From positions 1 through 34,131 of IMG/VR virus record IMGVR_UViG_3300032331_000926: a stretch of 34,131 nucleotides of DNA; one strand, written 5' to 3'. Below, piece after piece: positions 1 through 33,268 of the stretch; position 1 is the first letter of the stretch, and each line of letters begins with the position of its first letter. Origin of the DNA: a virus. Below the pieces are notes generated by a model. It had not been told where the DNA came from, ran no database searches, and worked only from the letters and a program-made list of their open reading frames with translations. The translations under genes and the position numbers were made by a program.

Positions 1-123
1 GCGCGGTTGTGACGCACCACGGGGTTTAAACAAGTCCATGATTACTCCTTACATTGCGGGGGGTTGAGGTGCGCCACCAGGAGCCATTCCCGGTATAGCG
101 GGTGCTGCTGCCATTGCCTTGCC
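1..123. repeat. Left copy of exact 123-bp direct terminal repeat (identical to 34009..34131)
   Basis: Read directly: bases 1-123 (gcgcggttgtgacgcaccacgggg...ccattgccttgcc) recur base-for-base at 34009-34131. The repeat is cut by both window edges, so it may be longer. Confidence 0.95.
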
Positions 124-522
124 CTCTGGCGTTGCACCACCAGCCTGCGGCAAGTTCTGAAGCATTTGCATGATCTCGGCGTTTTGCAATTCCTTGGTTT
201 TTTCTTTCTTTCCACCAAGCATTCCTGACAGTGAGCGCAGGACTTGCAATGCCTTCATGCCTTCAGGCGATTCGGAACCGAATGCCGGAAGTGCTTGTTC
301 AATCAAGTCCATCGCCATCGAGAGGTTAATCATCGCCCCCTCTTTGTTTCCCATTTTGGGTTCGGGCGTGGACATTGGAGCAGCCATGGGCGGTGTCTCA
401 GAGTCAGACATATTCCCCATGCCCATACCTGGCTCTGCACCAGGCGTAGGGCCAGCAGCAGGCGTAGGCGCTCCGCGCTGTCCTTTAATCATTTCCATCA
501 ATCGGTCTGACGGTACGCTCAT
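49..522 (-). CDS. Hypothetical Met/Pro/Gly-rich protein (157 aa), located between portal and scaffold genes
   Basis: Longest ORF at this locus. AGGGA lies 6 nt upstream of the ATG. Its TAA stop overlaps the AAGGAG Shine-Dalgarno (SD) of the next gene (ATG at 39 = 34047). 19 of 157 residues are Met, in a low-complexity P/G/A-rich sequence. Confidence 0.6.
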   Translation of the reverse strand: MSVPSDRLMEMIKGQRGAPTPAAGPTPGAEPGMGMGNMSDSETPPMAAPMSTPEPKMGNKEGAMINLSMAMDLIEQALPAFGSESPEGMKALQVLRSLSGMLGGKKEKTKELQNAEIMQMLQNLPQAGGATPEGKAMAAAPAIPGMAPGGAPQPPAM

Positions 523-543
523 GGTTAATCCCTAAGTTATCCG

Positions 544-573
544 AATAGTGGCAAGCACTTACTAACTTGTCAA
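544..573 (-). promoter_or_regulatory. Candidate sigma70-type promoter for the capsid-assembly genes
   Basis: Minus strand reads TTGACA (573..568), an 18-nt spacer, then ACTATT (549..544), about 25 nt upstream of the ATG at 522. The -35 is perfect, the -10 is weak, and the spacer is 1 nt long. Confidence 0.3.
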
Positions 574-633
574 GTTAAAAAAATGGGGGCTATATTTTCC
601 CACCCGCCCCGCAGGGGTAGACCCTTTCGGGAA

Positions 634-672
634 TTACTTGCGAGCCTTACGGCCTTTGCGAGCTTTACGCAT
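634..672 (-). CDS. Micro-ORF 2: 12-aa polycationic peptide MRKARKGRKARK
   Basis: atgcgtaaagctcgcaaaggccgtaaggctcgcaagtaa on the minus strand. AGGAG lies 6 nt upstream (gtagttAGGAGtgaatcATG). The stop is followed directly by G/C-run hairpins. It is too short for the ORF track. Confidence 0.35.
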   Translation of the reverse strand: MRKARKGRKARK

Positions 673-746
673 GATTCACTCCTAACTACAGAGGAGGCGA
701 TCTATTTGAAAGGGAAGAAAGCCACACCCTATTCCTTACGGAATTT

Positions 747-788
747 TTACCGACGAGTCTTGCGGGTACGCTTCATTTTCTTGTACAT
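747..788 (-). CDS. Micro-ORF 1: 13-aa polycationic peptide MYKKMKRTRKTRR
   Basis: atgtacaagaaaatgaagcgtacccgcaagactcgtcggtaa on the minus strand. AGGAG lies 6 nt upstream (gtagttactAGGAGtacaccATG). The stop is followed by the hairpin ATTCC-GTAA-GGAAT (744..731). Confidence 0.35.
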   Translation of the reverse strand: MYKKMKRTRKTRR

Positions 789-958
789 GGTGTACTCCTA
801 GTAACTACGAGTTGAGGAACGTCCATCAGACCGGGGTGTACTCCGGCTGGAATAGTTTTTACCACCCTGCACGCGGTATTGCAAGGCTGGTTCTTGTCTG
901 CCCAGCGATTGCGTACTTACGCGAGGTTGGTCAGCTTTGGGTTGGGTATTGCCTGGGT

Positions 959-2605
959 TCATTCTCCACCTACCGCTTTCAGGTCTGGTTTAGCCCCGCC
1001 TTTGCCCGTAGGCTGGGGAGGCTGTTGCGCCGCAGCAACGGCTTGCTTTTCTTCCATACGCTTGAGCCGGTCTTTCAGTTCCTGCTTCATGGGCGGCTCT
1101 AGCAGGTCAAGCAAGGATTCCTTGTCAATGGCCTGGGCCTTGAACAGGTTGAATGCCAGTGCGCGTAAATCCTCGGTGAAGATCGGGCTGTTGCTGTGCG
1201 CGTCCACTTTGACCGTGTAATCTTTTGTGAATTGCTCGGCAACAAAGGGAACTTTCTCGGTGTCTTTGAAGTGAGTATCATCGTATGCCTGCATCAGCTT
1301 CAAATACAGCGTAGATACCTTTTCCAGCGCATCCTCAACAATGAGGGCGCGTTTCTTAGCGCGGCTGGAACCTAGACGGGCAAGCTGGCTGGCGTGTCCG
1401 GCAGACCGGACTCCTGATTCACCCTTGCCTTGCAAGACGTTGCCAATGCCTGAGACTTCCTCAAACATCCTGTCTATCTGATTTAGAGATTCATACAGGT
1501 CTGATGGAATAGTGGGCGCTAACTTCTCTACCTTGGCATTAGGCATATCGGTAGACAACAAGCCGCCGGCACGGTTCAGGGCGAAGTTCTTTTCGTCCAG
1601 GATGCCAGAGAAGCCCATGAGGGCAGTCGGCGGCGCAACCTGCTTGGACAGCAAGTCTAGAATCTCGGTCATCCGGTTGTTTCGCATCTGCTGCAAATAG
1701 ATCAGACGCTGGCACTCGGACTGCCCCCAGAAATAATCGTACTGGGGGTTGGGGCAAATCTGAATGAAGGGCAGTTCGCCTTTCAAGAATACAGACTCAC
1801 CTGGGCGGTCATAGATAACGATGTCTGGTGAGGCCATGGTAACTACTTGATAGTCCATGGTTTCATCGTTCCAAAGCCACAGTTCCTTCATCTCTACTGT
1901 GTCCTCGGAAACTTGAGCCTTGTAACGGTTGTACCCGTCCAAGCCCATGTTGACGTTACCCATCATGGTGGGATCGCTAGAGGACAGCACGATACGGTCT
2001 ACGCCGTTGGGCGTATCGGTAATCGGTGGGTTGTAGCTAGAGGTAATACGATCAAGAATCTGCTCACGCTTGGGATGGCTGTATAGACGCGACATCAACT
2101 CAGACTTGGTAATGTAGTACGTCTGAACCATTGCCTCTTGCCGGTCAAGGTAAGGCGAATCCTCGCGCAGCACTCCCATCGCACCCGGCTCTACCATGTA
2201 CGGGTGAATGCCGTTGTTGTAGATTAGTTTGATGAAAGTCGAGTTGTAAACCAGTGACCAAGTGATTGCGGAACTAAATACTTGGTCGCAGTTGCTGTTG
2301 AGCCACTCATCGTTAAGCGCTTGCGTCAGCACGGGAATCTTGCGGTGCTCTTGCTCGGGGACAGACGCACCTAGGTTGATGCTAAAGCGCGTTGTCTCGG
2401 CTGAGTAGAGGAACGAAGTTAGCTGGTCAAGGTGCGGATAGATTTTGTTGAAGATTGCAGGCGAATCTTCTGGGCCACAGCCAAACAAATAAAACGAGCG
2501 CAGACTTGCATAGTCCGGGCCACGTTCATCCCGAGACACCATGCACTTCTGGATGATCTCAAGGTAGAACGATTCACGTTCACTGGCTGGTTTAGGAATC
2601 CGCAT
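959..2605 (-). CDS. Portal protein (putative)
   Basis: 548-aa ORF in the same operon as the large terminase and upstream of the scaffold and capsid genes. Size and position are typical of podovirus-type portals. This is a positional call with no diagnostic motif read by eye. Confidence 0.7.
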   Translation of the reverse strand: MRIPKPASERESFYLEIIQKCMVSRDERGPDYASLRSFYLFGCGPEDSPAIFNKIYPHLDQLTSFLYSAETTRFSINLGASVPEQEHRKIPVLTQALNDEWLNSNCDQVFSSAITWSLVYNSTFIKLIYNNGIHPYMVEPGAMGVLREDSPYLDRQEAMVQTYYITKSELMSRLYSHPKREQILDRITSSYNPPITDTPNGVDRIVLSSSDPTMMGNVNMGLDGYNRYKAQVSEDTVEMKELWLWNDETMDYQVVTMASPDIVIYDRPGESVFLKGELPFIQICPNPQYDYFWGQSECQRLIYLQQMRNNRMTEILDLLSKQVAPPTALMGFSGILDEKNFALNRAGGLLSTDMPNAKVEKLAPTIPSDLYESLNQIDRMFEEVSGIGNVLQGKGESGVRSAGHASQLARLGSSRAKKRALIVEDALEKVSTLYLKLMQAYDDTHFKDTEKVPFVAEQFTKDYTVKVDAHSNSPIFTEDLRALAFNLFKAQAIDKESLLDLLEPPMKQELKDRLKRMEEKQAVAAAQQPPQPTGKGGAKPDLKAVGGE

Positions 2606-3090
2606 TACTTCTTGACCCCAAGGTTTTCATGGTCTGCTATATAACTTGCGGCGCGTGGGCCTGTCAAGTTCCCCGCATCTTTGGGGTTCATGCCTACCGG
2701 CTCACCCTTGATAGATTGTACGGCGTTTCCTGACAGAATGGATTGCATATTCAATCCCTTCATCCCGCCGCCCCAGATCGCTGAGTCCCCAGGACGGGCC
2801 TCTTTGACTGCCTGCGCCTCGGCAACCTCCGGCGGCACATCCGCATTCTGGCGCTTGTAGTAGCCAGCCTGACTGTCACCCTCTCGCGTGGACTTGATGT
2901 CGGTCATCTTGAAGTCCATGGCAAGCTGCTTGATGGTCTTGTCGCTGCCTTTGGTCTTGTCACTAAGCATACCGGGGGCTTGCAGGTGGACAATCATCAC
3001 GCCTTCCTCACATCCTTCCGGGCAAATAGCGGCATACGCCTCAAAGTAGCCATGTTCCGGGCATTTATAGTCATTAAGTATGCGTGCCAT
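2605..3090 (-). CDS. Hypothetical protein, 161 aa, N-terminal Cys/His cluster
   Basis: Its stop overlaps the portal start by 1 nt. The N-terminus reads CPEHG...CPEGC (possible zinc site). No family recognised. Confidence 0.55.
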   Translation of the reverse strand: MARILNDYKCPEHGYFEAYAAICPEGCEEGVMIVHLQAPGMLSDKTKGSDKTIKQLAMDFKMTDIKSTREGDSQAGYYKRQNADVPPEVAEAQAVKEARPGDSAIWGGGMKGLNMQSILSGNAVQSIKGEPVGMNPKDAGNLTGPRAASYIADHENLGVKK

Positions 3091-3092
3091 AG

Positions 3093-3485
3093 TTATCTCC
3101 TTAATTGTTCGTCTATATCAAGATTAGAGTAGTCAGCCTTGTTTTTAAGGCCAATTCTCAGCTTTATTTGCCCGTTTTGCACTTCCAAGCCCATAGAACG
3201 GGCCACTTTAGGCTTGGCTTCCTTGCGGTATTGGACGAATCTGGTCTGGTCACGGTTCATCATTACTGCTATTTCCCCCCGCACCCAGGATTGATACCCC
3301 TTGCTAACCCGGCGCTGGACGTACTCAGTAAGGGGTTCTTCCTCCTTAATGAACACCAGGCGCAGGATTGCCACCGATACACCACACAATTCGGCAAACA
3401 GGGGGATGCTGATACCCCGATTTTTGTCTGCCAGGAACCTCTTTATGGTGCGTTTAAGTTCTAGGCGGGGGATGACTGGTTGCAT
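3093..3485 (-). CDS. Hypothetical protein, 130 aa, possible HTH
   Basis: The segment ISIPLFAELCGVSVAILRLV looks helix-turn-helix-like. Only one Met start is available, and it overlaps the methyltransferase 3' end by 25 nt. A small-terminase role cannot be shown. Confidence 0.5.
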   Translation of the reverse strand: MQPVIPRLELKRTIKRFLADKNRGISIPLFAELCGVSVAILRLVFIKEEEPLTEYVQRRVSKGYQSWVRGEIAVMMNRDQTRFVQYRKEAKPKVARSMGLEVQNGQIKLRIGLKNKADYSNLDIDEQLRR

Positions 3486-4117
3486 AACAAGGTTTTTTCC
3501 TTTTGCAAAACAAAGCAGTAGAAGGTTTCCTTCATGGTCTTTCCCTCTGCTTGCAAGTCAAACACAACTTGACGGTAATCCTTAAGGGCGAAGCCTGCAC
3601 GGGCAAATAGGTTGAACCACATCTTGTCACCCAGGATAGAGAAGTGGTTGGGGTTCCCCTCATGCACCCGGTCACAGTTGGGGGCTGGGACTTCAACGTA
3701 CAAGAAGCTGCCCTCTTTGATAACCCGATTGAACTCTATCAGGGTGAACAGCGGGTAGGGGCTGTGTTCTAGGGCGTGTCTGCACCAGAGCAGGTCAATG
3801 GACGAATCAAGCGCCGACAAGTCAGAGAAATCTTCCTGCACGGCGGGAAAGCCTTTGGCTTCGCAAGCGTCACAATCTTCCGGGCTGTAGGTAACGCCAC
3901 ACAGTTTCAGAAAACCACGCAGCATCATCTCCTGCATGAACGCACCCTGACCGCAACCAACGTCTAGGACGGCGGCGGTGTACTCCAGCTTCATGGCAGG
4001 GACGAATGTCTCAATGGCCTGCTTGATTAGCGGGGTATGAAAGTTGGGGGTATCGGGTTCCGAGTAGATTGTGTTGTAAACAAACTCCTGGCACTTTGTA
4101 AACTTATCCTGGTTCAT
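3461..4117 (-). CDS. Class I SAM-dependent methyltransferase (non-DNA type)
   Basis: Motif I VLDVGCGQGAF and a downstream LWCRHALEH (LEH-type) motif, as in the Methyltransf_11/23-like families. No DPPY/NPPY or PC/ENV DNA-methyltransferase motifs. Its start overlaps the terminase stop. Confidence 0.8.
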   Translation of the reverse strand: MNQDKFTKCQEFVYNTIYSEPDTPNFHTPLIKQAIETFVPAMKLEYTAAVLDVGCGQGAFMQEMMLRGFLKLCGVTYSPEDCDACEAKGFPAVQEDFSDLSALDSSIDLLWCRHALEHSPYPLFTLIEFNRVIKEGSFLYVEVPAPNCDRVHEGNPNHFSILGDKMWFNLFARAGFALKDYRQVVFDLQAEGKTMKETFYCFVLQKEKTLLCNQSSPA

Positions 4118-5871
4118 TGGAAACCTATCCTTTTCAAGTAGTCACCTACGGTTCTCTGGCTGATGTCCCCGATTGCGCCGTTGTCTTGCTTGGGTTCCAG
4201 CTTCTTTGAACGATCACGGGTATGGCGCATCTGGATGAGGCGGGGCTGAACCTGCTCGGCAAAGGCAGCGCAGGCCAAGGCCGAGGCAATTACCCGGTCA
4301 TCCTTGTTCCTGCCGGAAGCCTCAATGCTTGCGCCGTCACGGATGATGGTTTTCATTTCCTCGATGGTGTCGATAGACTTGACATCCATCATGCCGCGCT
4401 CAAAGTAGTCCTTCATGTAGGACAGCATCCGTTCCTTGGTCTGGCTTGTAGTCTGCCAGCCAATGCTGTTGCTGATGCCGCCCATGTTGTCGTTGCGCCG
4501 CCAGAGGTAGTTGGTCATGTGCGACAGAACGTCCATTAAGTCACGGCCTCGCTGACCTTCCAGCATGGACGCTTGCCTCTTGAGGTTTCTTAACTCATTG
4601 ATGACCGCCTGCCCTGGCCCATTGATCTCGAGGTTGAGGGTGGAGTTCTTGTAAGCGCCAGCAATGTGGGCGATGGCCCAAGCGAACTGGTAGGTGTTCA
4701 TCTCGCTAGTGGCAAACTCTAGGACGTGTTCCAGCCCGTCAGCGTAGGCGCGATAGACCTGGATGCAGAAGCGGTCAGCCCAATCGGACGAACCGTAAGC
4801 AGGGTCAGCGCCAATGACGTAGTAGGCCGAGTCGATGGGTTCTTCCCAGACCTTCAGGCTGGCAAGGCGCTCGGTAGACTTCATGCACTCGGTGTCAGTG
4901 AAGTTTGCACCCATGCTGTAGCGGTAGTAATCCGGCAGCAATTTCTTAGCGGCCTTCATTGCGTCCGTACACCGGGAGTTGCTGAAGTAGGAAGTGCCGG
5001 TCATCACGAAGGCATAGTCCTCGGTGGGCGGGAACTCCTGATACATCAGCGCATCGTCCTTGATGCCCTCATGCAGCTTCCAGCGCCACCAAGCCATCTG
5101 ACGGGAATTGATCTCTACGTCATAGAGTTTCTTGATGTCCCGTGTCCACTCCCGTTCCTCTGGGGTCAGCTTGCCGTCCCAGTAGACCTTGTAGGTTTGA
5201 CTGTCTGCCGGCAAGGAATAGAACTGGTTACGCCACCAGCCGCAGAAGATCGCCCGCTGAGTCTTGGCTCGCTTGGCAGTGGTGTACATATCGTGGAACA
5301 TATTGAAACCCTGGGCGGTACTCTCGAACATATAGAGGCGTTCAGGGTTCGTTTCAGCCAAGGATGCAATCAGGGAGGCTAGACCCTCCTCATTGCCCCA
5401 AGAGGCTGTTTCCGTGCCGTGCAGGTAGGTGATTGCCTTACCCTGACCCAGACGGCTCTTGTTGCCGGCTATCTGGTAGAAGATACGGGAACGGTTCTTC
5501 AGCACCATCTGGTTTCTGTTATGGGCTATCAGGGGTATCTTGTACTCCTTGGGTAGCCCATCCATGTACATGGCAAGGGTAGACCGGAACATATCCCGGT
5601 TCTCCTCGGTGTCAGATACCAACGTACCTTGCCAGCCAGGGTGAATGAATTGCCAGTACAGATCGAGGGCGAGGCTGATGGTTGTGATACCAAGCTGTCG
5701 GCCCTTGAGGATGACGAACATATGGATGCCCTCATCCAGACCTTTGGCAATCTCATCCATGACATAGGTCTGTGTGCCCAGCAGGGTGTCCATCTTACGC
5801 AGGCCCTGCTCCTTGGTTTCGATTTGGAGTTGGGCGCAGAAGGCGTAGAACTGTTTGAGGTTGAACTTCAT
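4114..5871 (-). CDS. terL: Terminase large subunit
   Basis: 585 aa. Walker-A-like ILKGRQLGITT near the N-terminus, and a C-terminal nuclease-type segment YYVIGADPAYGSSDWADRF. ATGA overlap with the upstream glycosyltransferase. Confidence 0.88.
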   Translation of the reverse strand: MKFNLKQFYAFCAQLQIETKEQGLRKMDTLLGTQTYVMDEIAKGLDEGIHMFVILKGRQLGITTISLALDLYWQFIHPGWQGTLVSDTEENRDMFRSTLAMYMDGLPKEYKIPLIAHNRNQMVLKNRSRIFYQIAGNKSRLGQGKAITYLHGTETASWGNEEGLASLIASLAETNPERLYMFESTAQGFNMFHDMYTTAKRAKTQRAIFCGWWRNQFYSLPADSQTYKVYWDGKLTPEEREWTRDIKKLYDVEINSRQMAWWRWKLHEGIKDDALMYQEFPPTEDYAFVMTGTSYFSNSRCTDAMKAAKKLLPDYYRYSMGANFTDTECMKSTERLASLKVWEEPIDSAYYVIGADPAYGSSDWADRFCIQVYRAYADGLEHVLEFATSEMNTYQFAWAIAHIAGAYKNSTLNLEINGPGQAVINELRNLKRQASMLEGQRGRDLMDVLSHMTNYLWRRNDNMGGISNSIGWQTTSQTKERMLSYMKDYFERGMMDVKSIDTIEEMKTIIRDGASIEASGRNKDDRVIASALACAAFAEQVQPRLIQMRHTRDRSKKLEPKQDNGAIGDISQRTVGDYLKRIGFQ

Positions 5872-32254: not shown

Positions 32255-33268
32255 TTATAGCGTGAGTGAGTTATAGCCGGTCACTTGGGTCATTGACTTG
32301 GGCTTGGTGTTTACCAATTCGGCAATCATCAAGACCGCGCCAACGTAACCAATCTGCCAGTTCGGGAGGGTGGACTCAAAGCCCGTGAACACAAACGAAC
32401 CTTGGTCGTGGATGTACAACGACAGGTAGTTGGTGTTAATCAGGTAGAGTTTACCTTCCGGGCAGTACGGATCGGGATAGATTGGAACGCCAGCAACCAT
32501 CAAGGCGCGGAACGCAGCCTGCGGGCCGTTGGAATCACTATCAAATCCGCTGCCTGGGGTGATGACGTATTGCTCTTGACCCACATAATCTTGAGCCAGC
32601 AGAGTCCAAGTACCAAAGCCGCACACGCCGAACGATGGCATTTCTGCGCCGTTCTTGACCGTGCCGCTAATGTACTGGAGTACGTTCTGACGAGTCGGGT
32701 TGACCGAGCCGGCAGCGTACTGTTTGGACTGCCACCAGGTGTAGGTAGAACGGTCGATGTTGCCGTAGTTACCAGCAGCAGGGTTGCTAGAAGAAATAGC
32801 CCCTGGCAGACCGATAAACTGCTGCGTGTTCGTGGTGTTGTTGTACAGAGCCGTAGCCATTGCGTCCATCATTACGTTGGTCGCATCGTTCATACGGGCT
32901 TCGATCAACGGGATTACCGCATGATCTTGCTGCACAGCACCTTCCATTCCGAGGAACGGAACGGGCGCAATCATCAGCTTGAGGTTGAATTCAGCGTTGT
33001 ACGCGCCTTGCTGAACGCTAGGCTGTGCAAACGATCCGCTGTAGTCAGACCACTGAGCATTGACAAACTGCGCTCCCTGGACGGGAACGGTGACAGATGA
33101 CACACCACCGGAAGCCTGCTGACTGTTTGCAATCAGTGCCGCCATGAGGGGAGTCGAGTTGTAAAGCTGGACAACCAGTTTCGGGATAAACGCACGCCGA
33201 GTGACATAAGTCAGTTCGGTGTACTGGGTAGAACCCGAAGCCGGAAGAATACCGCCGCCGATAGGCAT
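32255..33268 (-). CDS. Major capsid protein (putative, HK97-fold type)
   Basis: 337 aa, directly downstream of the scaffold-like gene, with a strong GGAG SD. Size, position and composition fit a podovirus major capsid protein. No search was run. Confidence 0.72.
   Translation of the reverse strand: MPIGGGILPASGSTQYTELTYVTRRAFIPKLVVQLYNSTPLMAALIANSQQASGGVSSVTVPVQGAQFVNAQWSDYSGSFAQPSVQQGAYNAEFNLKLMIAPVPFLGMEGAVQQDHAVIPLIEARMNDATNVMMDAMATALYNNTTNTQQFIGLPGAISSSNPAAGNYGNIDRSTYTWWQSKQYAAGSVNPTRQNVLQYISGTVKNGAEMPSFGVCGFGTWTLLAQDYVGQEQYVITPGSGFDSDSNGPQAAFRALMVAGVPIYPDPYCPEGKLYLINTNYLSLYIHDQGSFVFTGFESTLPNWQIGYVGAVLMIAELVNTKPKSMTQVTGYNSLTL

What the first reader, a model, noticed from the sequence alone, without database searches (positions are those of the whole stretch)
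577..845. Duplicated micro-ORFs encoding 12-13-aa polycationic peptides, each with its own AGGAG and GNRA hairpin, between portal and capsid-assembly genes
**Seen (minus strand).** Two units lie 116 nt apart and share one architecture.
- Unit 1: GTAGTTAcTAGGAGT-acacc-ATG encodes MYKKMKRTRKTRR (788..747). Its stop is followed by ATTCC-GTAA-GGAAT.
- Unit 2: GTAGTTAGGAGT-gaatc-ATG encodes MRKARKGRKARK (672..634). Its stop is followed by (TT)CCC-GAAA-GGG.
- After unit 2 come CCCC-TGC-GGGG, GGGTGGG, CCCCC-A and a run of 7 U's (583..577). The outer UUCCC...GGGAA can also pair, so several G/C runs compete for partners.
- A perfect TTGACA (573..568) follows, and then the 157-aa gene.
- A third exact copy of GGAGTACACC (844..835) lies 46 nt upstream inside a CCGG...CCGG stem. 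It looks like a decayed third unit.

**Knowledge.** Short leader peptides next to competing hairpins and a U-run are the hallmark of ribosome-mediated attenuation. Separately, phage heads can carry small basic peptides or polyamines to neutralise DNA charge.

**Inference.** Two hypotheses fit:
- (a) Arg/Lys-rich leader peptides gate read-through from the packaging genes into the capsid genes.
- (b) The peptides are genuine protamine-like products.

I am not aware of either being a described feature of such phages.
Basis: partly seen in the sequence, partly recalled or inferred. Interest (0 to 1): 0.7.

Follow-up and report, generated by a model that had tools for sequence, protein, structure and literature searches.

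The report
Conserved polycationic micro-genes in phage head module
Two 12-13-codon genes for almost purely Lys/Arg peptides, plus an undescribed RNA pseudoknot between them, are kept under selection next to the capsid-assembly genes in hundreds of uncultured phage genomes and are missed by annotation; what they do is not yet shown.

Summary
On the minus strand, uORF1 (788..747, MYKKMKRTRKTRR) and uORF2 (672..634, MRKARKGRKARK) each have an AGGAG Shine-Dalgarno. They are the only such ORFs in the 34-kb genome (0.05 expected).

Both are conserved in frame in relatives:
- 71 of 75 portal-matched loci carry exactly two.
- They recur in clades whose portal is only 27-53% identical.
- Variation sits at third codon positions (pN/pS 0.40 and 0.52 in frame, 1.4-2.1 out of frame).

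So they are protein-coding micro-genes. They stay next to the scaffold-like gene even where the portal is inverted.

A conserved 54-aa basic protein gene precedes them. A covariation-supported H-type pseudoknot (730..696) precedes uORF2; it has no Rfam match.

The capsid genes have their own near-invariant TTGACA promoter, a U-run terminator is present in only 11 of 56 lineages, and folding shows no ribosome-dependent switch. The "decayed third unit" lies inside the 54-aa gene.

Best guess, inferred and untested: trans-acting polycations of head assembly or DNA packaging, acting as DNA counter-ions analogous to Microviridae J or adenovirus mu. The RNA elements would tune their expression.

The parts
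959..2605 (-). Portal protein gene (548 aa); upstream neighbour.
   Evidence: Pfam PF23899 SU10_portal, E 5.6e-12. Annotated as portal in the GenBank relatives.
798..962 (-). Conserved 54-aa basic small-protein gene. Its ATG overlaps the portal stop (ATGA). Its TAG stop (800..798) overlaps the AGGAG of uORF1.
   Evidence: 56 distinct homologues share the motif ..QPKADQPRV..LQYRVQG.K.. at the same position. No Pfam or PHROG family.
835..844 (-). It lies inside the coding sequence of the 54-aa gene.
   Evidence: Repeat D4. It falls within the conserved ORF. Not conserved in more distant relatives.
795..799 (-). Shine-Dalgarno AGGAG of uORF1, 6 nt before the ATG.
   Evidence: Sequence. An SD is present in nearly all relatives. 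Duplex energy with the anti-SD is -6.8 kcal/mol, in the upper third of the genome's genes.
747..788 (-). uORF1: MYKKMKRTRKTRR* (13 aa, net charge about +8).
   Evidence: Conserved in frame; family consensus M-Y-K-x-x-K-R-[GST]-R-K-[TS]-R-R. pN/pS is 0.40 in frame and 1.6-2.1 out of frame.
731..744 (-). Hairpin ATTCC-GTAA-GGAAT, starting 3 nt after the uORF1 stop.
   Evidence: The position is conserved while the stem sequence varies, with compensatory changes. 30 of 47 distinct sequences have a GNRA tetraloop.
696..730 (-). H-type RNA pseudoknot. S1 pairs 730..727 (AGGG) with 714..711 (CCCT). S2 pairs 723..716 (GGCTTTCT) with 703..696 (AGATCGCC). The 3-nt loop L1 is TGT, and L3 is A-rich.
   Evidence: Covariation in both helices. 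The covariance model built on S2 gives one hit in the window (693-733, 53 bits) and one hit in each of 95 of 100 loci chosen by peptide pattern alone. S1 was not in the model, yet is 99.3% paired, with compensatory changes at 3 of 4 pairs. No Rfam match.
679..696 (-). Possible SD-sequestering hairpin: CTCCT (696..692) pairs with AGGAG (683..679), which is the Shine-Dalgarno of uORF2.
   Evidence: Present in the window's minimum-free-energy fold. In the family it is 85% paired with little covariation (helix 4), so it is tentative.
634..672 (-). uORF2: MRKARKGRKARK* (12 aa, net charge about +8). Internally an 18-nt tandem, RKARKG | RKARK*.
   Evidence: Conserved in frame; consensus M-(A)-R-K-x-R-K-G-R-K-x-R-K. 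pN/pS is 0.52 in frame and 1.4 out of frame. Internal repeat D1.
586..631 (-). G/C-run hairpins after uORF2: CCC-GAAA-GGG at 631..622, CCCC-TGC-GGGG at 617..607, and GGGGC/GCCCC at 610..606 with 590..586.
   Evidence: Sequence. The last hairpin is conserved with compensatory changes, for example GGCGGTT/AACCGCC, GGCAGTT/AACTGCC and GGGGCAG/CTGCCCC. No ribosome-dependent switch appears in folding.
577..583 (-). Run of seven T after the last hairpin, giving a weak terminator-like site. It is lineage-specific.
   Evidence: A run of at least 5 T occurs in only 11 of 56 distinct lineages. The terminator scan did not call it.
568..573 (-). TTGACA, the -35 element of a conserved promoter for the 157-aa gene and the capsid genes.
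   Evidence: Present in 54 of 56 distinct lineages, 40-51 nt before the ATG.
49..522 (-). 157-aa gene for a Pro/Gly/Met/Ala-rich, mostly helical protein. It is a putative scaffold by position only.
   Evidence: It lies two genes upstream of the major capsid gene (32255..33268, PHROG 9953, E 2e-33) once the window is read as circular. More than 1,100 homologues, none named. The AlphaFold model has low confidence (pLDDT 54) and shows helices plus disorder.

Best explanation
uORF1 and uORF2 are real, separately translated micro-genes. They belong to two old paralogous types. One ends ..KRGRKTRR and the other ends ..RKGRKxRK.

They belong to the head-morphogenesis module of a large family of uncultured tailed phages. 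In this genome the order is portal, 54-aa basic protein, uORF1, uORF2. The start of the 54-aa gene overlaps the portal stop, and its own stop lies within the Shine-Dalgarno of uORF1.

The most likely role is as trans-acting polycations (net charge about +8 each) during capsid assembly and DNA packaging. In that reading they are non-diffusible counter-ions that bind the packaged dsDNA. They would be a genetically encoded substitute for polyamines, comparable to protein J of Microviridae or peptide mu of adenovirus.

The RNA elements around them are the hairpin 3 nt after each stop, the pseudoknot and the possible anti-SD hairpin in front of uORF2. They most likely set how much peptide is made, perhaps by feedback binding of the arginine-rich peptides to the irregular S2 helix.

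What is shown:
- the two ORFs are coding;
- they are under selection at the peptide level;
- they are linked to the capsid genes;
- the pseudoknot is real.

What is inferred:
- that the peptides are in the virion or bind DNA;
- that the RNA elements are regulatory;
- that there is any feedback.
For: Coding status.
- Exactly two K/R micro-ORFs occur in 71 of 75 portal-matched loci.
- Under a stricter rule, 137 of 142 distinct portal-to-scaffold gaps have at least one, and 101 have two.
- At the conserved K/R codons, third-position entropy far exceeds that at positions 1 and 2.
- pN/pS is 0.40 and 0.52 in frame, against 1.4-2.1 out of frame.
- The antisense ORF annotated in the GenBank relatives is not conserved.

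Specificity.
- There are no other such ORFs in the genome, with 0.05 expected.
- Of 119 IMG/VR loci found by the peptide's DNA pattern alone, 117 carry the portal or scaffold homologue.

Depth.
- The micro-ORFs are present where the portal is 52-53%, 39-43% and 27-32% identical.

Linkage to capsid genes.
- In the clade with about 30% portal identity, the micro-ORFs lie on the strand opposite the portal. They sit directly upstream of the scaffold-like gene and behind their own TTGAC(A) promoter.
- There they are often followed by a strong hairpin with a T-run, so a short and probably abundant transcript is expected.

Peptide-level constraints beyond K/R content.
- Tyr at position 2, and Gly/Ser/Thr at positions -6 and -3.
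- The position of the stop codon is also fixed.

Expression.
- Both have a canonical AGGAG with 6-nt spacing. Its strength is equal to that of the major capsid gene.

Pseudoknot.
Against: - There is no direct evidence that the peptides are made, enter the virion or bind DNA.
- No isolate of this family is in the GenBank phage collection, so no proteome exists.
- Polyamines and Mg2+ already act as counter-ions in the tailed phages studied so far. No tailed phage is known to me to need an encoded polycation (own knowledge).
- Start/stop overlap with the portal gene, a 12-copy protein, does not fit bulk stoichiometry.
- Peptides this short lack a capsid-anchoring segment such as protein J has.
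- In the distant clade the layout of promoter, micro-ORF, terminator and capsid genes also looks like a leader-peptide attenuator.
- Other uses of a polycation fit the sequence equally well: binding RNA or ribosomes, acting on the host, or acting on the outer membrane.
Confidence: 0.4

Rival explanations
1. The micro-ORFs are cis-acting leader peptides, as in attenuation or translation-coupled antitermination. Translation of the Lys/Arg codons next to hairpins would control how much transcription or translation reaches the capsid genes. The peptides themselves would be by-products.
For: - The ORFs are short, have good Shine-Dalgarno sequences, and a hairpin starts about 3 nt after each stop.
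- This window has a hairpin followed by a run of seven T.
- In the distant clade the order is TTGAC(A) promoter, micro-ORF, strong GC hairpin often with a T-run, then the scaffold-like gene. That is the layout of a leader-peptide attenuator.
Against: - In the window's clade a near-invariant TTGACA promoter sits between the micro-ORFs and the capsid genes in 54 of 56 lineages, and only 11 of 56 have the T-run. The ORFs remain under purifying selection all the same.
- No mutually exclusive fold depends on ribosome position.
- Two tandem ORFs of distinct conserved types, each with fixed Gly/Thr/Tyr positions and a fixed length, are more constraint than a codon sensor needs.
- There is no obvious reason for capsid genes to respond to Arg/Lys-tRNA charging.
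Confidence: 0.12
2. The peptides are arginine-rich-motif RNA binders, in the manner of the lambda N or HIV Tat/Rev peptides. Their targets would be the adjacent GNRA hairpins and the pseudoknot, or other phage RNAs. They would regulate late gene expression or their own synthesis and would not be structural.
For: - A hairpin follows the uORF1 stop, and 30 of 47 distinct sequences have a GNRA loop.
- The conserved pseudoknot has an irregular S2 helix, either a tandem G.U pair or a U.C/U.U internal loop. Arginine-rich peptides often bind such sites (own knowledge).
- The pseudoknot always lies just upstream of the uORF2-type ORF.
Against: - The pseudoknot is absent from the clade with about 30% portal identity, which still has the peptides. 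RNA binding to it cannot be the ancestral role.
- Peptides of 12-13 aa have no room for the NusA- and polymerase-binding parts that lambda N needs.
- GNRA loops are common in any stable hairpin.
Confidence: 0.15
3. The peptides are assembly cofactors, not DNA counter-ions. They would act on the portal, on the scaffold-like protein or on the inner capsid surface, for example by bridging acidic patches, nucleating the procapsid, or holding the DNA end at the portal.
For: - Gene position is constant next to the scaffold-like gene.
- In this genome the portal stop overlaps the start of the 54-aa gene, whose own stop lies within the Shine-Dalgarno of uORF1, 9 nt before its ATG. This suggests translational coupling.
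Against: - The scaffold-like protein is only mildly acidic, about -3 net by my count of the translation.
- No structural model is available; the AlphaFold model has pLDDT 54.
- Linkage to the portal is not kept in the distant clade.
Confidence: 0.15
4. The peptides act on the host. As polycations they could bind ribosomes, RNA, the nucleoid or the outer membrane. Possible effects are host shut-off, anti-defence or help with lysis. Their place in the head module would be incidental.
For: - The composition resembles tiny polybasic ribosomal proteins and polycationic membrane-active peptides (own knowledge).
- Nothing in the sequence excludes this reading.
Against: - Linkage to the scaffold and capsid genes is strict over very large evolutionary distances. 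This is unusual for host-takeover or lysis genes, which sit in early or lysis modules.
- There are no hydrophobic residues for membrane activity.
Confidence: 0.13
5. The ORFs are not genes. The K/R codons would be a by-product of a conserved non-coding RNA or DNA element, or of an antisense gene.
For: GenBank relatives annotate plus-strand ORFs across this region.
Against: - The plus-strand ORFs are interrupted in many relatives.
- Variation is concentrated at third codon positions of the minus-strand frame only.
- ATG, stop and Shine-Dalgarno are all conserved.
- The whole region folds no better than shuffled sequence, z = -0.14.
Confidence: 0.03

Closest known systems
Microviridae DNA-binding protein J (phiX174, G4, alpha3)
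   Same: It is a very small, highly basic, virus-encoded peptide. It is made with the structural genes, enters the capsid with the genome and neutralises its charge (own knowledge).
   Different: - J is about 20-38 aa and has a hydrophobic C-terminal segment that anchors it to the coat protein. The peptides here are 12-13 aa with no hydrophobic segment.
- J serves ssDNA in a T=1 capsid with no packaging motor. This is a tailed dsDNA phage with a portal and terminase.
- No sequence homology can be tested at this length.
Adenovirus core peptide mu (pX) and protein VII; baculovirus P6.9; protamines
   Same: These are arginine-rich polycations that condense dsDNA inside a virion or nucleus. Mu is only about 19 aa after cleavage (own knowledge).
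   Different: - Mu is cut from a precursor. Here each peptide is a primary translation product with its own Shine-Dalgarno.
- Those are eukaryotic viruses.
- Here Lys and Arg alternate with small residues in a three-residue rhythm, without long Arg runs.
Polyamines (putrescine, spermidine) and Mg2+ as counter-ions in tailed-phage heads
   Same: They carry out the proposed task of neutralising packaged dsDNA and aiding packaging (own knowledge).
   Different: They are host metabolites. They are small, diffusible and not encoded by the phage. A +8 peptide would bind multivalently and would not leak out in dilute water.
Leader-peptide transcription attenuators (trpL, hisL, pheL; pyrBI type)
   Same: They are short ORFs with Shine-Dalgarno sequences placed next to hairpins and, in some lineages, a U-run.
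   Different: - There is no conserved terminator and no alternative pairing tied to ribosome position.
- The downstream genes have their own promoter.
- There are two tandem ORFs with conserved peptide sequence.
Lambda N peptide with boxB; HIV Tat with TAR and Rev with RRE (arginine-rich motif with an RNA hairpin)
   Same: Arginine-rich peptides are encoded beside short hairpins that have GNRA-type loops or irregular helices.
   Different: - The peptides are too short to carry effector regions.
- No boxA-like element was looked for.
- The RNA elements are not conserved as deeply as the peptides.
H-type pseudoknots in 5' leaders that control translation (T4 gene 32 mRNA, ribosomal protein S15 and S4 operators, preQ1-I riboswitch)
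   Same: A compact H-type pseudoknot with an A-rich third loop lies about 20-25 nt upstream of a start codon, in the mRNA of a nucleic-acid-binding product.
   Different: - There is no sequence or model match to any Rfam family.
- S2 is long (8 pairs) and has a conserved internal irregularity.
- The ligand or binding partner is unknown.

Membership tests
Protein-coding gene (translated micro-ORF) | Start codon, stop codon and ribosome-binding site are conserved in frame across relatives. | tested here: met
   71 of 75 loci carry two ORFs with ATG and Shine-Dalgarno, and 137 of 142 distinct gaps carry at least one.
Protein-coding gene (translated micro-ORF) | Excess of synonymous over non-synonymous change in the proposed frame only. 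| tested here: met
   pN/pS is 0.40 and 0.52 in frame, against 1.4-2.1 in the shifted frames.
Protein-coding gene (translated micro-ORF) | Direct evidence of translation from ribosome footprints or detection of the peptide. | not testable with these tools
   No isolate and no expression data.
Leader-peptide transcription attenuator | An intrinsic terminator (hairpin plus U-run) lies between the leader ORF and the regulated genes and is conserved. | tested here: not met
   a run of at least 5 T occurs in only 11 of 56 distinct lineages of the window's clade; not called by the terminator scan. It is present in part of the distant clade.
Leader-peptide transcription attenuator | Mutually exclusive terminator and antiterminator folds, selected by ribosome position on the leader. 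| tested here: not met
   the same terminator-like hairpin is predicted with and without the first 18 nt after the stop blocked. Tested on this window only.
Leader-peptide transcription attenuator | The regulated genes depend on the promoter upstream of the leader. | tested here: not met
   TTGACA lies 40-51 nt upstream of the 157-aa gene in 54 of 56 lineages, downstream of both micro-ORFs. This is a consensus match plus conservation, not a mapped transcription start.
Viral genome-condensing polycationic peptide (Microviridae J, adenovirus mu type) | Very small and strongly basic; encoded with the structural genes. | tested here: met
   8 of 12-13 residues are K/R, and the ORFs are always adjacent to the scaffold-like and capsid genes.
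Viral genome-condensing polycationic peptide (Microviridae J, adenovirus mu type) | Present in the virion, bound to the genome. | not testable with these tools
   Needs virion peptidomics.
Viral genome-condensing polycationic peptide (Microviridae J, adenovirus mu type) | Hydrophobic or aromatic C-terminal anchor to the coat protein (protein J specifically), or sequence homology to J. | tested here: not met
   both peptides end in K/R, and the only aromatic residue is Tyr2 of uORF1. Homology cannot be assessed at 12 aa.
Lambda N / boxB-type antitermination | An arginine-rich motif together with a GNRA-like hairpin in the transcript. | tested here: inconclusive
   30 of 47 distinct sequences have a GNRA loop after uORF1, and 12 of 36 after uORF2. 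GNRA loops are common, and binding was not tested.
Lambda N / boxB-type antitermination | Effector regions that bind NusA and RNA polymerase. | tested here: not met
   The peptides are 12-13 aa, so there is no room for such regions (own knowledge of N).
Known structured RNA family (Rfam) | A match to a curated covariance model. | tested here: not met
   no match within 560-850 even at E up to 10, searching 1-3000.
H-type RNA pseudoknot | Two crossing helices, each supported by compensatory changes. | tested here: met
   91% of cells are paired, against 39-62% when the partner is slid.

- S1 is 99.3% paired (AU 45, GC 14, CG 5, UA 2 at one pair).
- S2 shows CG 53/AU 15 and CG 46/UA 19 at two pairs.
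- None of 500 shuffles reaches the observed covariation score.

The most novel reading that the evidence does not exclude
Tailed dsDNA phages of a large, uncultured family, apparently mostly from fresh water, encode their own 'peptide polyamines'. These are two 12-13-residue, +8 peptides made with the capsid proteins and sealed into the head with the DNA as non-diffusible counter-ions. Their synthesis would be held in check by a new pseudoknot RNA that the peptides themselves bind. This would be the first protamine-like system in tailed phages, and among the shortest conserved genes with a structural role.
Probability: 0.3. Interest if true: 0.85.

Novelty: new variant of a known kind. Interest (0 to 1): 0.72.

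Why it matters
- Genes of 12-13 codons are below the reach of gene callers. In the two GenBank relatives the region is instead annotated with antisense 'hypothetical proteins' that are not conserved.
- The comparative evidence for such tiny genes is unusually clean. There are hundreds of genomes, and conservation extends down to about 27% portal identity.
- If the peptides are head components, they would change how DNA charge neutralisation and capsid pressure are viewed in tailed phages. They would also give a simple experimental handle, because synthetic peptides can be tested on packaging and stability.
- If they are regulators, they are a minimal peptide-RNA system.
- Either way, the pseudoknot is a new, well-supported RNA motif with an obvious candidate partner.

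Tried and rejected
- tRNA or tmRNA: none in the window.
- Known RNA families: none in the region.
- Global structure: 850..560 folds no better than shuffled sequence, z = -0.14. Only local elements matter.
- Antisense gene: the plus-strand ORF 583..801 and its annotated counterparts are broken in many relatives.
- Third decayed unit: the 10-mer at 844..835 is coding sequence of the 54-aa gene.
- Isolates: tblastn of two portals against 50,697 phage records found only two metagenomic genomes and a weak Bacillus phage hit.
- Host:
  - Species-representative genomes gave only metagenome-assembled (MAG) contigs, in mutually inconsistent bins.
  - The bins include beta-proteobacteria, Gallionellaceae and Paludibacterium, and also Legionella, Patescibacteria, Nitrospira and others.
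  - The host is left open.
- Rosetta-stone fusion: the two pattern hits without a portal (L122, L187) have no usable start codon and look like chance matches.
- Function of the 157-aa protein: no Pfam, PHROG or named homologue. The AlphaFold model is too poor for a fold search, so none was run.
- Literature: the exact peptide strings occur in no paper. Searches for protamine-like or polycationic small phage proteins, and a 2024 review of phage small proteins, gave nothing relevant.
- SD-sequestering hairpin before uORF2: plausible in this window but weakly supported by covariation. It is kept as tentative.
Full report
**1. The observation**

- uORF1 runs 788..747 and encodes MYKKMKRTRKTRR. Its AGGAG is at 799..795.
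- uORF2 runs 672..634 and encodes MRKARKGRKARK. Its AGGAG is at 683..679.
- The two starts are 116 nt apart (repeat D2).
- ATTCC-GTAA-GGAAT lies at 744..731, beginning 3 nt after the first stop.
- CCC-GAAA-GGG lies at 631..622, after the second stop.
- Next come the G/C runs, a run of seven T (583..577) and TTGACA (573..568).
- A second exact GGAGTACACC lies at 844..835 (repeat D4).

This is not chance. On both strands of the 34,131-base window, the only ATG-ORFs of 8-30 codons with at least 60% Lys+Arg are these two, plus one nested start. In 300 second-order Markov simulations the mean was 0.047 per genome, and 0.007 with a Shine-Dalgarno.

**2. Context**

The window behaves as a complete, circularly permuted phage genome of about 34 kb.
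- The two nearest GenBank records are circular 34-36 kb 'Bacteriophage sp.' genomes from a Florida spring. They are 65-71% identical in DNA over this region.
- On the minus strand the gene order is:
  - large terminase (5871..4114);
  - an ORF (4117..3461) that is syntenic with the annotated methyltransferase of the GenBank relative;
  - two small genes;
  - portal (2605..959; Pfam SU10_portal);
  - a 54-aa ORF (962..798);
  - uORF1 and uORF2;
  - a 157-aa gene (522..49).
- Across the window junction follow two more small genes and the major capsid gene (33268..32255; PHROG major head protein, E 2e-33).
- The 157-aa protein has more than 1,100 homologues. None is named and none has a Pfam domain.
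- An AlphaFold model is of low confidence (pLDDT 54) and shows helices plus disorder. This is compatible with a scaffolding protein but does not show it.
- I call it 'scaffold-like' by position only.

**3. The micro-ORFs are genes**

A portal-based scan of IMG/VR found 572 relatives, of which 80 loci were fetched.
- In 75 loci the portal-to-157-aa gap is complete. Of these, 71 have exactly two K/R-rich micro-ORFs with ATG and a Shine-Dalgarno, one has three and three have one.
- Under a stricter rule over 142 distinct gaps, 101 have two, 35 have one, one has three and five have none.
- The consensus peptides are M-Y-K-x-x-K-R-[GST]-R-K-[TS]-R-R and M-(A)-R-K-x-R-K-G-R-K-x-R-K.

At the conserved K/R codons, nucleotide variation is concentrated at the third position.
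- Mean entropies at positions 1, 2 and 3 are 0.74, 0.64 and 1.23 for uORF1.
- For uORF2 they are 0.80, 0.76 and 1.12.
- Over the last nine codons pN/pS is 0.40 and 0.52 in frame, against 1.4-2.1 in either shifted frame.

The plus-strand ORFs that GenBank annotates across this region in both relatives are interrupted in many family members. They are most likely artefacts of gene callers that cannot see 12-codon genes.

**4. Depth and linkage**

A scan of IMG/VR for the DNA pattern of R-K-G-R-K-x-R-K-stop used no other information.
Of these, 117 carry a portal or 157-aa homologue.
- The two exceptions lack start codons.
- Clades with 52-53% portal identity have two or three such ORFs.

A clade with about 30% portal identity has contigs up to 57-64 kb.
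- Its micro-ORFs end in ..HKGRKGRK or ..RKMHRKGRK.
- Many loci have a second ORF, such as MRKSKRKTCR or MASCRSKKRSTRK.
- The ORFs lie on the strand opposite the portal, directly upstream of a Pro/Gly/Met-rich scaffold-like gene.
- There a TTGAC(A) motif lies about 100-150 nt upstream.
- The first micro-ORF is followed by a strong GC hairpin, often with a T-run.

Metagenome-assembled (MAG) contigs from species-representative genomes show the same at 27-73% portal identity.

Three conclusions follow.
- The peptide genes are ancient.
- There are two types.
- They travel with the capsid-assembly genes, not with the portal.

**5. Other conserved elements**

(a) The 54-aa ORF is a conserved basic small protein.
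- It has 56 distinct homologues with the motif ..QPKADQPRV..LQYRVQG.K...
- Its ATG overlaps the portal stop, and its TAG lies inside the AGGAG of uORF1.

(b) An H-type pseudoknot lies between uORF1 and uORF2.
- S1 pairs 730..727 with 714..711. S2 pairs 723..716 with 703..696.
- RNAalifold recovers S2.
- On 44 sequences the full structure is 91% paired, against 39-62% when the partners are slid.
- A covariance model built on S2 alone finds one site in the window. It also finds one site in each of 95 of 100 loci that had been chosen by peptide pattern only, always just upstream of the uORF2-type ORF.
- On that independent set S1 was not in the model, yet it is 99.3% paired. Compensatory changes occur at three of its four pairs.
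- S2 carries a conserved irregularity, either a tandem U.G/G.U pair or a U.C/U.U internal loop.
- Rfam has no match.
- The motif was not found in the clade with about 30% portal identity.

(c) A hairpin follows the uORF1 stop at a mean offset of 3 nt. In 30 of 47 distinct sequences it has a GNRA tetraloop.

(d) The last hairpin before the 157-aa gene is conserved with compensatory changes. It is followed by TTGACA in 54 of 56 distinct lineages, 40-51 nt before the ATG. The T-run is present in only 11 of 56.

**6. Mechanism**

- There is no conserved terminator.
- There is a conserved promoter downstream of the ORFs.
- No ribosome-dependent alternative fold is predicted.

In addition, the peptides are equally conserved whether they lie upstream of the capsid promoter, as here, or downstream of it, as in the distant clade. 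This argues that the peptides themselves are the selected product.

Three features point to a trans-acting polycation of head assembly or DNA packaging.
- The composition is 8 of 12-13 residues K/R, with small residues in a three-residue rhythm.
- The C-terminal end is fixed.
- Linkage to the scaffold and capsid genes is strict.

I consider a DNA counter-ion role the most likely.
- Neutralising 20% of the roughly 68,000 phosphates would need about 1,700 peptides.
- That is about 2.7 MDa, or roughly 12% of the DNA mass.
- In amino acids it is about 15% of the cost of the coat protein, assuming a T=7 shell.
- These figures are my own arithmetic, not a tool result.

The short promoter-to-terminator unit of the distant clade fits a product needed in bulk. 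The Shine-Dalgarno strength equals that of the major capsid gene.

All of this is inference. Roles as RNA-binding regulators, assembly cofactors or host-directed polycations are not excluded. I put the counter-ion and head-component reading at about 0.4, and the coding status at above 0.9.

**7. Comparison and novelty**

The closest functional analogues are protein J of Microviridae, peptide mu of adenovirus, and the polyamines found in tailed-phage heads.
- Membership in the J family is not supported, because there is no hydrophobic anchor and homology cannot be tested.
- I found no description of such peptides or of the pseudoknot.
- The exact peptide strings occur in no indexed paper.

I rate the finding as a new variant of a known kind, namely virus-encoded polybasic peptides. 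It occurs in a virus group where none is known, and it comes with a new RNA motif.

Noticed in passing
window 798-962 (minus strand): A conserved 54-aa basic protein gene lies between the portal and uORF1. Its ATG overlaps the portal stop, and its stop lies inside the uORF1 Shine-Dalgarno. It has 56 distinct homologues and no family assignment.
   Followed up: partly
window 696-730 (minus strand): A new H-type pseudoknot RNA motif lies in front of uORF2. Both helices are supported by covariation. It is present once per genome in 95 of 100 independently chosen relatives and is absent from Rfam.
   Followed up: yes
L001 3574-3834 (+) = MW202825 25683-25943; L002 3441-3739 (+) = MW202753 4740-5038: GenBank relatives annotate plus-strand 'hypothetical proteins' antisense to the micro-ORFs. 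These ORFs are not conserved across the family and look like mis-annotations.
   Followed up: yes
window 568-573 and upstream hairpin 586-610 (minus strand): A near-invariant TTGACA is preceded by a conserved hairpin. The loop of that hairpin keeps an AAATAT(A) stretch, which may be an UP element. This looks like a host-type promoter for the capsid genes.
   Followed up: partly
window 634-672 (minus strand): uORF2 is internally an 18-nt tandem duplication: CGTAAAGCTCGCAAAGGC then CGTAAGGCTCGCAAGTAA, that is RKARKG then RKARK-stop.
   Followed up: no
L202-L281 (e.g. L207, L214, L239): This phage clade has contigs of 57-64 kb and a portal about 30% identical to the window's. It has the layout promoter, K/R micro-ORF, canonical intrinsic terminator, second K/R micro-ORF, scaffold-like gene, all divergent from the portal.
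   Followed up: partly
several loci, e.g. L015, L054, L062, L069, L078, L207: The penultimate Arg of either peptide type is recurrently replaced by Cys (..TCR, ..VCK, ..GCK, ..SCK). This is a single CGY-to-TGY change that appears to be tolerated in many lineages.
   Followed up: no
window 1-48 and 34131 downward (minus strand): A small ORF starts at 38..36 (MDLFKPRGASQPR..) and runs off the window start. By comparison with the gene order in MW202825, the window is a circularly permuted complete genome.
   Followed up: no
L282-L298: Contigs of this phage family are binned into MAGs of very different phyla (beta-proteobacteria, Legionella, Patescibacteria, Nitrospira, Acidobacteria, Chloroflexi and others). 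This suggests binning artefacts, not prophages.
   Followed up: no
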